From Escherichia coli (lineage in GTDB: Bacteria > Pseudomonadota > Gammaproteobacteria > Enterobacterales > Enterobacteriaceae), in NCBI RefSeq assembly GCF_002854065.1, contig NZ_CP024149.1: a stretch of 33,301 nucleotides of DNA. The stretch is one strand, 5' to 3'. The position numbers were made by a program. Every line of letters starts with the position of its first letter. Position 1 is the first letter of the stretch. Positions 29,201 through 32,200 of this stretch are shown one piece after another.

Positions 29201-32200
29201 ATCAATGCAAGGGAAATTCATGAAAACGTTAAAACAAGCCGCAATGCAGTTTGCATCTGATCTGCGTAATAATCGCTGTTTTAAAGCTGCTTATAATGAT
29301 GCTCTGTTAGAGCTTGATCGGGAAGATTTAAACGCCATTGTACAATGCACATTTCTTTTTGAGCCAAAACGAACATTAGCCGAACTTGATAAATTAATTA
29401 AAAAGATAGAAGTAGAAGAAGATTATGAGTTTTGTGTATCCCTTGATAAAGGTAAAGGATTACACGAAGTCAGAACATTTAAAAGTGAGCGTGAGGCGTT
29501 GGATGCTTATCGCATTTTGACTCTTTACGGATACACAGTAACTATAGAAAAGAAGGAGGGTAATGACTGACTATTCAAGGTGTGATCAGGTTGTTCCACC
29601 AACCTGATCACGTTATCGACAATCAAAACTGAATGAGGTTTTTAAATGTCAACGCGGCAGATCGTACAGCTTGCTGATTCCCTTGTCAAAGGCTGGGAAA
29701 CCAGAATTCCGGCAATGAAATTTAGCGAATGGGATCAATTCCGGTGGTGGTTAAACTACTTGCAAGGGTATGAAATGTTTTAAATAAAAAAAGGGGCTTT
29801 CTGCCCCTTTGTATTTTTTGACAAAAATGCCATGTGTAACTATAATTAGTTGCATATCTATAGGGGATGGATTTATGGGGAAAACAGATAAGCTACTGGC
29901 AAAGTTTTTAAACAGTAAAAAAACGTTTGAATGGGATGAACTGGTCGTTTTGTTTTCCTCTTTGGGATATGTCAAAAAGGAAATGCAGGGGTCAAGAGTG
30001 CGGTTTTTCAATGCTGAAATCAATCACACCATATTAATGCATCGTCCACATCCGGAAAGTTATATCAAAGGTGGTACGCTGAAAGCAATTAAACAGAATC
30101 TGAAAGAGGCTGGATTATTATGAAACATTTAAAATATAAAGGATATTTAGGCACGGTTGAACCCGATTTTGAAAATAATGTCCTGTATGGAAAACTGGCG
30201 TTTATTCGGGACCTGGTAACTTATGAGGCTTCTACATTAGCTGAACTGGAACAGGAGTTTAAAACATCTGTTGATCTGTATTTACAGTCTTGTGTGGAGG
30301 ATGGAAAGGAACCTGATACCCCGTTTAAAGGCGTGTTTAACGTCAGGCTTGATCCAGAACTGCATCGTCGGGTAGCAGAAATGGCGATGGAAGAAGATTT
30401 ATCGTTGAATGCCTTTGTTAATAAGGCTCTGGAAAAAGAAGTCAGCAATCATCGCGCAGGGGCTTAATTGCCCTTGTTTTTATGCCCTGTAAGGGCATGG
30501 GAGGCGCTTTGCGCCGGAAGCCCCGCAGCGCAGCGAGGACTTAAAAAGCGTTACGGCTTCAGCCGTAACAATTCCCAGCCCTGCCAGGCCTGTTTTTTCT
30601 TTCACAAATCTTTCAGCTATACGTTTGCCTGATGGTCGAAGACGAAAGAATCTTTCAGCAACGAAATCTGGACATATGCAGCGACGATTTTATAGCCAGG
30701 CACAGTGCCACATATGGTACAATCAATGCAGGATAGACAATCCGATGTCAAATGTTAACATTTGAATCAGATTGTCCAAAAACGATGTTTTTGCCTGTGC
30801 CTGCCGCAGGCTCTGTTGGGGTGACTTATGAAGATGATAGCGTTCAGGCTAAGTGATGATGAGTTAAAATTTGCAGAACATAACGCTATTTTAAGTGGAT
30901 TTACCAGTATCAATGCTTTTGCTAAGCATAACGTGCTTAATATTGAAACCAAGCCTGTTAACATCCCAGTTAATAATGAACCAGCAAAGCTGGTATCAGT
31001 GCGTCTTTACCCTCATGAAATAGAACTTGTTAAACGTAATGCTGCTCTTCACGGCATGAGCATGAGCAGAGAAATTGCTATTCGTGTGCGTCAGTCTTTG
31101 TTAAAGAGTGAAGTCTGTCTTTACCCTGATGAAGTTAAGGAACTTAAAAAACTATCAACTGCTGTAGATCGTGTTGGTCGCAACATTCATTTTATCATAA
31201 AAGGTGAAAGATTCTGTACGGTTAACGATCCAGATTTCAGAAAAGACGTTATTGAAGTGATTGAACTGTGTAAGCAAATTGATTCAAAACTTGAAACGTT
31301 AACCAAGAGTGTTGTTAACAGATTTGGGTGATTTATGGGTGTGTATGTAGAACAGGAATACCGTATTAAACGCGCTAAAGGGACTGGGCGTGATCCGAAA
31401 TCTCCTAAGTTATCGGGAAGACATATACATGCCAGTAAATCGGCTTTTAATCATAAAGTCAGACATGGTGCGGACAAGAAAGCATATACCTGGACACCTA
31501 CAAAAGAAGTCACTTTTAAAATCACTGGCTCAGGTAAAACAGCCGCAGGCATCAAAAATGGTATTGATTACATTACCCGTAATGGTGAACTTGAGGCTTA
31601 CTGTTATGATGGAAAAGGTTCAGAGCAAACAGGGAAAGGAGAAGACTTTAATAGGGAGTTTACTTCAACTTTATCTAAAGGAAATGATTACTCCAGGACA
31701 TATCGTGGAGAAAACATCGATCATGTGAAAAACATGGTCTTTTCACCACCACCAGAAGCTGGAGTAAGCAGGGAAGACGCTCTGAAAGCTACGGTAGAAT
31801 TTCTTAAAGAGACTTATCCAAACCATGCTTTCGTTGCCGTATACCATGATGATAAAGAAGATCATCCTCATGTACATGTTAATATTAAACTTCGTGATGA
31901 AGAAACAGGAAGAAGATTAAGACTTACTAAATCTGAAACCAGGAAGTTCAGAAACGGTTTTCATAGAAAACTGAAAGGTATGGGATATGATGTTACCGCT
32001 ACCTGGAAAAAAGATCCCGAACGTAAACGGGAGATTGAGCGATTACAGGCTGAAAATCCGAAAAGACTCCGGAATGTTTACAAGGTGGTGGATTTTGGGG
32101 AGACTTCATATCAGAATAAGGCAGGGGAAAAACGAACACCTTTCCTCACTTATGAAACTTTAAAAGGTGGAAAACAGGTTACGATTTGGGGTAAAGACCT

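What the first reader, a model, noticed from the sequence alone, without database searches (positions are those of the whole stretch)
29818..30467. hicAB toxin-antitoxin module with a consensus promoter next to oriT-like copy B
Seen in sequence: TTGACA-17bp-TATAAT with a partial palindrome over the -10 region, then hicA (toxin first) overlapping hicB by 4 bp; structured GC-rich hairpins follow hicB (30468..30600). Together with the candidate type I system at 17480..18021 and parA, the plasmid would carry three independent maintenance systems.
Basis: partly seen in the sequence, partly recalled or inferred. Interest (0 to 1): 0.3.

Follow-up and report, generated by a model that had tools for sequence, protein, structure and literature searches.

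The report
Known HicAB toxin-antitoxin cassette on IncX4
This is the well-known HicA/HicB toxin-antitoxin gene pair of IncX4 colistin-resistance plasmids; it has already been annotated and tested in the lab, so it is ordinary, although its toxin lacks the usual catalytic histidine.

Summary
A perfect TTGACA-17-TATAAT promoter sits at 29818-29846. hicA (29875-30123) overlaps hicB (30120-30467) by ATGA, a palindrome lies over the -10, and GC-rich hairpins follow hicB.

The window is an mcr-1 IncX4 plasmid, 3 mismatches from pLHM10-1-MCR-1. RefSeq annotates both genes at exactly these coordinates, and about 390 plasmid records carry the cassette at 99% identity or more.

The identical sequence, on p14EC007a, was tested by Lin et al. 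2025. HicA was toxic and HicB neutralised it, but the module gave only a weak competitive advantage.

- Comparison with an IncI2 homologue sets the cassette limits at about 29816-30481.
- The operator GTAACTA-N4-TAGTTGC (29836-29853) is conserved in six distant loci.
- The cassette lies 0.25-0.9 kb from a candidate nic site, in leading-region orientation.
- HicA Arg41 occupies the position of the canonical catalytic His. In this clade His56 and His59 are the near-invariant and invariant histidines instead.
- The GC-rich element at 30489-30590 is a separate, unannotated element found in more than 1000 other plasmids.

Verdict: already known, low interest.

The parts
29818..29823 (+). -35 hexamer TTGACA of the hicAB promoter
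   Evidence: Homology with the IncI2 copy of the cassette begins at about 29816, just before this hexamer.
29841..29846 (+). -10 hexamer TATAAT, 17 nt after the -35
   Evidence: The -35/17-nt/-10 layout recurs in the IncI2, Salmonella (TTGACC/TATTAT) and Photorhabdus (TTGACT/TATTGT) relatives.
29832..29857 (.). Predicted HicB operator. The palindrome is ATGTGTAACTA-TAAT-TAGTTGCATAT, with the core GTAACTA-N4-TAGTTGC at 29836-29853. It covers the -10 and the likely transcription start.
   Evidence: one site found, 0.07 expected. The ACTA/TAGT half-site cores are invariant in six loci from Enterobacteriaceae, Photorhabdus, Avibacterium and Acinetobacter. HicB binding itself is inferred, not shown.
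29862..29867 (+). Shine-Dalgarno sequence AGGGGA of hicA, 7 nt before the ATG
   Evidence: Read directly from the sequence.
29875..30123 (+). hicA, toxin of 82 aa (WP_000520549.1). It has the HicA dsRBD-like fold with an extra N-terminal helix. Arg41 sits at the canonical catalytic-His position, and His56/His59 lie in the motif H-R-P-H-P.
   Evidence: Pfam PF07927 scores 45.5 bits. The AlphaFold2 model has mean pLDDT 96.2. The top Foldseek hits are 6G26_E/F, 1WHZ and 4C26. The profile alignment to 4C26 and 4P78 places R41 on the catalytic His. Toxicity of the identical protein is reported in PMC11878559.
30120..30467 (+). hicB, antitoxin of 115 aa (WP_000681613.1). [quoted passage not shown] Its start overlaps the hicA stop in ATGA.
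   Evidence: Pfam PF05534 scores 71 bits. The AlphaFold2 model has mean pLDDT 81.6, with strands 2-37, a helix at 40-60 and helices at 79-91 and 96-114. The top Foldseek hits are 6G26_A/B, 2DSY and 6G1C. It is 62% identical to H. influenzae HicB Q9LA69.
30456..30483 (+). Intrinsic-terminator-like hairpin GCAGGGGC-TTAATT-GCCCTTGT followed by TTTTTA. It straddles the hicB stop codon and marks the 3' end of the cassette.
   Evidence: It is conserved in the IncI2 homologue and in the IncI2 hicB remnant, and homology stops right after it.

Best explanation
The locus is a complete, self-contained HicAB type II toxin-antitoxin cassette of about 666 bp, at about 29816-30481. It is the 'hicA^O^B' module typical of IncX4 plasmids.

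How it most likely works:
- A consensus sigma-70 promoter drives one bicistronic mRNA. hicA is translated from its own Shine-Dalgarno sequence. hicB translation is coupled to it through the ATGA overlap. Transcription stops at the hairpin over the hicB stop codon.
- HicA is a small dsRBD-fold toxin that arrests growth; this is shown for the identical protein. By analogy with other HicA proteins it probably acts by cleaving RNA, which is not shown for this clade.
- HicB neutralises HicA; this is also shown. By analogy it does so by covering the toxin's active face with its N-terminal domain.
- HicB dimerises through its C-terminal ribbon-helix-helix. I infer that it binds the palindrome GTAACTA-N4-TAGTTGC over the -10 and so keeps a very strong promoter nearly shut. 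This fits the low hicA mRNA level reported for this module.

The cassette sits 0.25-0.9 kb from the candidate nic site of oriT copy B, as the first genes of the leading region, and it is transcribed toward oriT. Its measured contribution is modest: a weak advantage in plasmid-plasmid competition and no detectable role in vertical stability.

Its toxin belongs to a large clade, paired with H. influenzae-type HicB, in which the canonical catalytic His is Arg. Two other histidines, His56 and His59, are near-invariant and invariant instead. This suggests a relocated active site.
For: Gene identity:
- Pfam HicA_toxin and HicB both score above their gathering thresholds.
- RefSeq annotates both genes in hundreds of IncX4 records.
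- The AlphaFold2 models are confident: mean pLDDT 96.2 for HicA and 81.6 for HicB.
- Their best PDB fold matches are HicA (6G26_E/F, 1WHZ, 4C26) and HicB (6G26_A/B, 2DSY, 6G1C).

Promoter:
- It is a unique 12/12 match; 0 of 100 shuffles contain one.

Cassette limits:
- The IncI2 homologue, 88.7% identical, shares only the stretch from the -35 to the terminator.
- An IncX6 plasmid carries a RelE/ParE toxin-antitoxin pair in the same slot.

Operator:
- It is the only such site in the window, with 0.07 expected.
- Its half-site cores are invariant across six loci whose flanks are unalignable. These include a perfect 22-nt palindrome in an Acinetobacter plasmid.
- HicB Asn74 is invariant and Arg76 nearly invariant in the predicted ribbon-helix-helix strand.
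- There is precedent: YpHicB3 and BpsHicB operators overlap the -10 (PMC11594946).

Experiments on identical DNA:
- HicA is toxic and HicB neutralises it.
- hicA and hicB mRNA levels are similar, and hicA mRNA is not above the purA reference.
- The intact plasmid reached a 3:1 ratio over the hicAB deletion at generation 80 (PMC11878559).

Leading-region position:
- The sequence TATCCTG|C lies on the minus strand at 30729-30734, 7 nt from a large inverted repeat.
- The neighbouring genes to the left that I checked are also on the + strand.
- Toxin-antitoxin genes are enriched in leading regions in this orientation (PMC11541004).

Active site:
- R41 aligns to H24 of BpsHicA and H28 of YpHicA3.
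- Among 129 clade members, position 41 is R in 106, A in 10, G in 7 and S in 3. H56 is present in 126 and H59 in all 129.
- The IncI2 HicA^T keeps the canonical Ser-His.
Against: - HicB binding to the palindrome and autorepression have not been measured for this module; both are inferred.
- RNase activity has not been shown for any member of this Arg41 clade, and the canonical catalytic His is absent. The mechanism of toxicity is therefore by analogy only.
- The post-segregational-killing role implied by 'toxin-antitoxin on a plasmid' is contradicted by published tests and by natural deletion variants.
- The nic site and the direction of transfer are inferred from the MOBP consensus, not mapped. 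A second, inverted oriT copy also exists.
Confidence: 0.9

Rival explanations
1. The module is a plasmid maintenance (addiction) system. After plasmid loss, labile HicB decays and HicA kills the plasmid-free segregants. On this reading it acts alongside the DqlB type I toxin and ParA as a third stability system.
For: It is a functional toxin/antitoxin pair on a low-copy conjugative plasmid. It is present at 99% identity or more in about 390 plasmid records. dqlB (17877-17972) and parA (18635-19282) are also present.
Against: A maintenance role was discarded for the pJIE143 copy (PMC11594946, citing Bustamante and Iredell 2019). The hicAB deletion could be made directly, and the intact plasmid gained only 3:1 at generation 80. 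In the IncI2 system, HicB was stable for 12 h in lysate. Natural IncX4 and IncI2 plasmids have lost hicA.
Confidence: 0.15
2. Its main role is in horizontal conflict, not vertical stability. As a leading-region cassette it would be expressed soon after entry into a new cell. It could then help establishment, exclude competing plasmids, or act as an abortive-infection or anti-phage module.
For: It forms the first genes after the candidate nic site and is oriented so that the transferred strand is the template. Toxin-antitoxin genes are enriched in leading regions (PMC11541004). HicA domains occur in many defence contexts (PMC10865869). A small but real competitive advantage was measured. A different toxin-antitoxin family occupies the same slot in an IncX6 plasmid.
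Against: The measured competition effect is weak. No phage or establishment phenotype has been reported for this module. The promoter is an ordinary double-stranded sigma-70 promoter, and no single-strand promoter lies upstream.
Confidence: 0.35
3. HicA of this clade is not a His-dependent RNase. It poisons cells in another way, for example by binding RNA or ribosomes without cleavage, because the catalytic His is replaced by Arg.
For: R41 aligns with the catalytic His of solved HicA proteins. Position 41 tolerates A, G and S within the clade. In every characterised HicA, that His is required for toxicity.
Against: Two histidines are conserved in the clade: H59 is invariant (129/129) and H56 nearly so (126/129). 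H56 closes strand 51-56, which the model places as the hairpin partner of strand 41-46, so it would lie across the strand from residue 41. H59 matches the 'PHP' His, which the gonococcal HicA paper describes as close in space to the catalytic His. This pattern fits a relocated catalytic residue better than a loss of catalysis.
Confidence: 0.25

Closest known systems
hicA^O^B of IncX4 plasmids p14EC007a and pJIE143 (Lin et al. 2025, PMC11878559; Bustamante and Iredell 2019)
   Same: It is the same module. The 1001 bp at 29700-30700 are 100% identical to p14EC007a, with the same protein accessions WP_000520549.1 and WP_000681613.1. The ORFs overlap and there is no internal terminator.
   Different: Nothing differs in sequence. 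The promoter/operator anatomy, the cassette limits, the leading-region position and the Arg41 substitution are not discussed in the papers I could read: 'catalytic', 'palindrom' and 'autoregulat' each occur 0 times in PMC11878559.
hicA^T^B of IncI2 plasmid pHNSHP45
   Same: Both are toxin-first HicAB pairs on mcr-1 conjugative plasmids, and in both the toxin is neutralised by HicB.
   Different: Protein identity is below 26%. HicA^T is 60 aa and keeps the canonical Ser-His. HicB^T is 145 aa. An intergenic G/C hairpin terminator raises the toxin:antitoxin ratio and gives strong plasmid competition. The IncX4 module has the ATGA overlap, equal mRNA levels and a weak effect.
Structurally solved HicAB systems: B. 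pseudomallei (6G26, 4C26) and Y. pestis HicA3B3 (4P78)
   Same: HicA has the same dsRBD-like fold. [quoted passage not shown] The operator palindrome overlaps the -10.
   Different: Sequence similarity is marginal: profile E-values are 0.004-0.4 for HicA, and no HicB chain is found by sequence. This HicA has an extra N-terminal helix and an extra small strand pair. The catalytic His is Arg.
Haemophilus influenzae HicAB, the locus that named the family
   Same: HicB is 62% identical to H. influenzae HicB Q9LA69. Pasteurellaceae chromosomes carry the same layout: an 82-aa HicA and a 113-aa HicB with a 4-bp overlap, the S-R-V-R-F and H-K-P-H-P motifs, and the same operator core.
   Different: That locus is chromosomal rather than plasmid-borne. 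I found no functional data for that clade other than the IncX4 toxicity test.

Membership tests
HicA toxin family (Pfam PF07927) | Sequence match to the family profile above the curated threshold | tested here: met
   45.5 bits against a cut-off of 27, E = 8.4e-12, covering residues 20-81 and profile positions 1-58 of 58.
HicA toxin family (Pfam PF07927) | dsRBD-like alpha-beta-beta-beta-alpha fold | tested here: met
   The AlphaFold2 model has mean pLDDT 96.2. The top Foldseek PDB hits are HicA chains 6G26_E/F, 1WHZ and 4C26, with probability 0.84-1.00 and target-normalised TM-scores of 0.57-0.72.
HicA toxin family (Pfam PF07927) | Catalytic His two residues after the conserved Gly (G-x-H; H24 in BpsHicA, H28 in YpHicA3) | tested here: not met
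   The motif here is G39-S40-R41. The profile alignment puts R41 on H24 (mutated to Ala in 4C26) and on H28 of 4P78. Across 129 clade members the position is R in 106, A in 10, G in 7 and S in 3. Membership by homology stands, but the canonical catalytic mechanism cannot be assumed.
HicA toxin family (Pfam PF07927) | Ribosome-independent RNase activity | not testable with these tools
   I found no biochemical data for this clade. Only growth toxicity is reported.
HicB antitoxin family (Pfam PF05534, ribbon-helix-helix type) | Sequence match to the family profile above the curated threshold | tested here: met
   71 bits against a cut-off of 21, E = 7.6e-20. It is 62% identical to H. influenzae HicB.
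HicB antitoxin family (Pfam PF05534, ribbon-helix-helix type) | [quoted passage not shown] | tested here: met
   The model has four strands at 2-37, a helix at 40-60, and helices at 79-91 and 96-114. Fold hits are 6G26_A/B (probability 1.00), 2DSY and 6G1C. Ribbon-helix-helix hits are weak: 9KKD CopG at E = 0.053, Antitox_RHH at E = 0.026 and YlcI_YnfO_N at 8.5e-6. The Foldseek E-values are weak (0.014-0.8).
Type II toxin-antitoxin module | Adjacent co-transcribed genes, with toxin growth arrest neutralised by the cognate protein antitoxin | tested here: met
   The genes overlap by 4 bp, with a single promoter and a single terminator. For identical DNA, toxicity, neutralisation and similar mRNA levels are published (PMC11878559).
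Type II toxin-antitoxin module | Autoregulation by the antitoxin binding a palindromic operator in its own promoter | tested here: inconclusive
   A palindrome over the -10 is present, unique in the window and conserved in six distant loci. Binding and repression have not been measured.
Plasmid addiction / post-segregational killing system | Deletion lowers plasmid stability, and plasmid-free segregants are killed | not testable with these tools
   The literature reports that a maintenance role was discarded for pJIE143 and that the competitive effect was limited for p14EC007a. Natural hicA-deleted IncX4 plasmids exist. I therefore do not file it as a stability system.

The most novel reading that the evidence does not exclude
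The IncX4 HicA represents a large, mechanistically unstudied HicA clade: 335 clusters at 50% identity with E <= 0.001. These are proteins of about 82 aa, paired where I checked (six loci) with H. influenzae-type HicB. In this clade the catalytic His of every characterised HicA is replaced by Arg, or by Ala, Gly or Ser. A near-invariant His (H56) sits across the strand from that position, and an invariant His (H59) lies in the motif H-[KR]-P-H-P. The active site would have migrated to the neighbouring strand and loop, or toxicity would not depend on the canonical chemistry. This difference, and not only the missing internal terminator, might contribute to the weaker addiction phenotype of hicA^O^B compared with hicA^T^B.
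Probability: 0.5. Interest if true: 0.35.

Novelty: already known. Interest (0 to 1): 0.15.

Why it matters
[quoted passage not shown] For this module the basic questions are already answered: it is a real toxin-antitoxin pair with little effect on stability.

- a precise map of the cassette, including promoter, operator and terminator, with limits set by comparison;
- its position as the first genes of the leading region;
- a testable point about an atypical toxin active site.

The adjacent GC-rich element, which is conserved across IncX, IncN and IncF plasmids and has no annotation, may be the more useful lead.

Tried and rejected
- phmmer of HicA and HicB against PDB sequences found no HicA or HicB chain. 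A clade profile found HicA chains only marginally and no HicB chain. Fold comparison was needed instead.
- NCBIfam has no HicA hit for this protein.
- The JAC 2019 paper (Bustamante and Iredell) is not held, and pJIE143 (JN194214) is not in the plasmid collection. The pJIE143 result is therefore cited second-hand from two papers.
- For the GC-rich element I tested the idea that it is a phage-G4-type primase priming signal. blastn against phages found nothing relevant. Local alignment to the G4 F-G intergenic origin scored no better than shuffles. Rfam gave no hit in that stretch. The idea is not supported by sequence and rests only on position.
- The alternative long hicA ORF starting at TTG 29809 (104 aa) is rejected, because it would begin upstream of the promoter's -35.
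- The coordinates in my first family-search calls were off by one base. I corrected them.
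Full report
**What the window is.** The window is a complete mcr-1 IncX4 plasmid. It is a rotated reverse complement of NZ_CP037906.1 (pLHM10-1-MCR-1, 33,301 bp) with 3 mismatches. After mapping, the RefSeq features 'HicA family toxin' (WP_000520549.1) and 'HicB family antitoxin' (WP_000681613.1) fall exactly on 29875-30123 and 30120-30467. A 1-kb query around the locus matches 1027 plasmid records, 358 of them at 99% identity or more. Every top hit carries the same annotation.

**Checking the observation.**
- TTGACA (29818-29823), a 17-nt spacer and TATAAT (29841-29846) form a 12/12 promoter match. It is the only exact match in the window, and none occurs in 100 shuffles.
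- hicA starts at ATG 29875, with AGGGGA 7 nt upstream. hicB starts at ATG 30120 inside ATGA, a 4-base overlap.
- A palindrome, ATGTGTAACTA-TAAT-TAGTTGCATAT (29832-29857), has 9 of 11 arm positions complementary and is centred on the -10.
- The stretch 30450-30600 is 59-60% G+C in a background of about 38%. It folds more stably than shuffles, with z = -4.0.
- The 'oriT-like copy B' is one arm of a 94-nt, 99% inverted repeat: 23934-24027 / 30724-30817.

**What the proteins are.**
- HicA matches Pfam HicA_toxin at 45.5 bits against a cut-off of 27. HicB matches Pfam HicB at 71 bits against a cut-off of 21.
- The HicA model is very confident (mean pLDDT 96.2). It has the dsRBD-like core plus an extra N-terminal helix. 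Its best PDB fold matches are the HicA chains 6G26_E/F, 1WHZ and 4C26.
- The HicB model (mean pLDDT 81.6) has four strands and a long helix, then a linker and two helices typical of a ribbon-helix-helix. Its best fold matches are B. pseudomallei HicB (6G26_A/B), TTHA0281 (2DSY) and the HicB N-domain (6G1C).
- HicB is 62% identical to the Haemophilus influenzae HicB that gave the family its name.
- Pasteurellaceae chromosomes carry the same pair of an 82-aa HicA and a 113-aa HicB with the same 4-bp overlap.

**Limits of the module.**
- Some IncI2 plasmids carry a homologue that is 88.7% identical.
- Against it, homology starts at about 29816, two bases before the -35. It ends at about 30481, just after a terminator-like hairpin that straddles the hicB stop (30456-30477, followed by a T-run).
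- Upstream, a bidirectional terminator (29790-29810) closes the preceding gene.
- The unit is therefore a cassette of about 666 bp: promoter/operator, two genes and a terminator.
- An IncX6 plasmid has a RelE/ParE-type toxin-antitoxin pair in the same position, before the same GC-rich element, a taxA-position gene and the MobP1 relaxase gene. This site behaves as a slot for toxin-antitoxin cassettes.

**Operator.**
- The core GTAACTA-N4-TAGTTGC (29836-29853) occurs once in the window, with 0.07 expected.
- I compared the upstream regions of six relatives: IncX4, IncI2, a Salmonella contig, Photorhabdus, Avibacterium and an Acinetobacter plasmid. The flanks do not align, but the half-site cores ACTA and TAGT, with a 4-nt spacer, are invariant.
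- Photorhabdus has GTAACTA-TTGT-TAGTTAC inside a TTGACT-17-TATTGT promoter.
- Salmonella has GTGACTA-TTAT-TAGTTAC inside a TTGACC-17-TATTAT promoter.
- Avibacterium has TGTAACTATAATTAGT.
- Acinetobacter has a perfect 22-nt palindrome, TTGCAACTAAATTTAGTTGCAA.
- In HicB, Asn74 is invariant and Arg76 nearly invariant in the predicted ribbon-helix-helix strand.
- In Y. pestis and B. pseudomallei, the HicB operators also overlap the -10 (PMC11594946).
- I therefore infer that HicB represses this promoter by occupying the -10. This is comparative evidence, not a binding assay.

**What has already been tested.**
- Lin et al. 2025 (PMC11878559) named this subfamily hicA^O^B, for overlapping ORFs with no internal terminator, and found it predominant on IncX4 plasmids.
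- They worked with p14EC007a, whose 1001 bp here are identical to the window and carry the same protein accessions.
- They showed that HicA is toxic and HicB fully neutralises it. hicA and hicB mRNA levels are similar, and hicA mRNA is not above the purA reference. The intact plasmid reached only a 3:1 ratio over the hicAB deletion after 80 generations.
[quoted passage not shown] I could not read that paper itself.
- Natural IncX4 plasmids (NZ_CP029976.1 and NZ_CP147037.1) give the same partial match. In NZ_CP029976.1, which I aligned, a deletion of about 436 bp removes the -10, all of hicA and roughly the first 50 codons of hicB.
- Typical mcr-1 IncI2 plasmids keep only a truncated hicB of this type, next to their own hicA^T^B.
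- The low mRNA level from a perfect consensus promoter fits tight autorepression; this is my inference.

**Position on the plasmid.**
- On the minus strand, the 94-nt repeat reads ...GACAATCTGATTCAAATGTTAACATTTGACATCGGATTGTC-TATCCTG|CATTG. That is a large inverted repeat followed by a match to the MOBP nick consensus YATCCTG|Y. The consensus is from my own knowledge of RP4-type oriT sites.
- If the nick is there (30728/30729), the transferred strand is the minus strand. The first DNA to enter a recipient would then be the GC-rich element, followed by hicB and hicA.
- hicAB and the neighbouring genes to their left that I checked are all on the + strand. The transferred strand is therefore their template.
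- This is the orientation reported for leading-region genes, among which toxin-antitoxin genes are enriched (PMC11541004).
- The second oriT copy points the other way, into the replication genes. The nick site and the direction of transfer are inferred, not mapped.

**The one atypical feature.**
- In every characterised HicA, a His two residues after a conserved Gly is needed for toxicity or RNase activity.
- Here the motif is G39-S40-R41. A profile of 119 clade members aligns R41 to H24 of B. pseudomallei HicA (Ala in the 4C26 mutant) and to H28 of Y. pestis HicA3.
- Among 129 clade members, position 41 is R in 106, A in 10, G in 7 and S in 3. H56 is present in 126 of 129 and H59 in all 129.
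- The clade is large: 335 clusters at 50% identity with E <= 0.001.
- In the model, residue 41 opens strand 41-46 and H56 closes strand 51-56, its hairpin partner. The two should therefore be cross-strand neighbours (the register is my inference).
- H59 corresponds to the 'PHP' His, which the gonococcal HicA paper describes as close in space to the catalytic His.
- The IncI2 HicA^T keeps the canonical Ser-His.
- The Lin et al. paper does not discuss catalytic residues.
- The likeliest reading is a relocated active site. A different mode of toxicity is not excluded.

**The hairpins after hicB.**
- The first hairpin is the cassette's terminator.
- The rest (30489-30590) is not part of the cassette, because the IncI2 homologue lacks it.
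- It is a separate element of about 105 nt that recurs at 80-88% identity in more than 1000 other plasmids. These are mostly Klebsiella IncF and IncN plasmids, and the element is never annotated.
- It lies about 0.8 kb beyond the repA stop in an IncFII plasmid, and among leading-region-type genes (dqlB, an antirestriction gene) in IncN plasmids. In IncX6 it lies before the relaxase-region genes, as here.
- An alignment of seven plasmids gives four conserved hairpins. Three of the 28 pairs show compensatory changes.
- There is no Rfam match and no similarity to the phage G4 complementary-strand origin.
- A single-strand priming signal remains my best guess, from its positions only.

**Verdict.** The module is already annotated and experimentally characterised, and its supposed maintenance role is weak. 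Novelty: already known. Interest: low.

Noticed in passing
window 30489-30590: A GC-rich structured element of about 105 nt that is not part of the hicAB cassette. It recurs at 80-88% identity in more than 1000 plasmids (IncX4, IncX6, IncN, IncFII, IncFIB and others), always unannotated. It has four conserved hairpins, and 3 of 28 pairs show compensatory changes. It has no Rfam match and no similarity to the phage G4 complementary-strand origin. In the IncFII plasmid it lies about 0.8 kb beyond the repA stop, and in IncN plasmids among leading-region-type genes. It is possibly a single-strand priming signal.
   Followed up: partly
window 23934-24027 and 30724-30817: A 94-nt inverted repeat, 99% complementary. 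Each copy holds a large palindrome followed by TATCCTG|C, a match to the MOBP-type nick consensus. Copy A carries it on the + strand (24017-24022) and copy B on the - strand (30729-30734). The repeat flanks a 6.7-kb segment holding the replication gene, the iterons and hicAB, and the genes I checked nearest each copy point toward it.
   Followed up: partly
L005 2501-2817 (IncI2 NZ_CP041113.1); L017 1501-1761 (IncX4 NZ_CP029976.1): Independent decay of this cassette in two plasmid lineages. Typical mcr-1 IncI2 plasmids, and at least one IncX4 plasmid, have lost hicA and the 5' part of hicB but keep the 3' ribbon-helix-helix half of hicB. The IncI2 remnant lies about 800 bp upstream of that plasmid's own hicA^T^B. 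An 88-aa HicB fragment cluster is common: 201 member sequences on 118 contigs.
   Followed up: partly
L011 905-1487 (IncX6 NZ_CP115729.1): An IncX6 plasmid carries a RelE/ParE-family toxin and its antidote exactly where IncX4 has hicAB. The pair lies just before the same GC-rich element, a taxA-position gene and the MobP1 relaxase gene. This suggests an exchangeable toxin-antitoxin slot beside oriT.
   Followed up: no
window 26332-26631 and 28412-28711: Two 300-nt direct repeats, 99% identical and 2080 nt apart, in the unannotated or hypothetical-gene region between the replication origin and hicAB.
   Followed up: no
A 33-nt direct repeat (17534-17566 / 17768-17800, 88% identical) lies upstream of it.
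   Followed up: partly
window 29790-29810: A bidirectional terminator-like hairpin, AAAGGGGC-TTTCT-GCCCCTTT, with T-runs on both strands. It sits directly upstream of the hicAB -35 and closes a 45-aa ORF (29646-29783) that has no family match.
   Followed up: no
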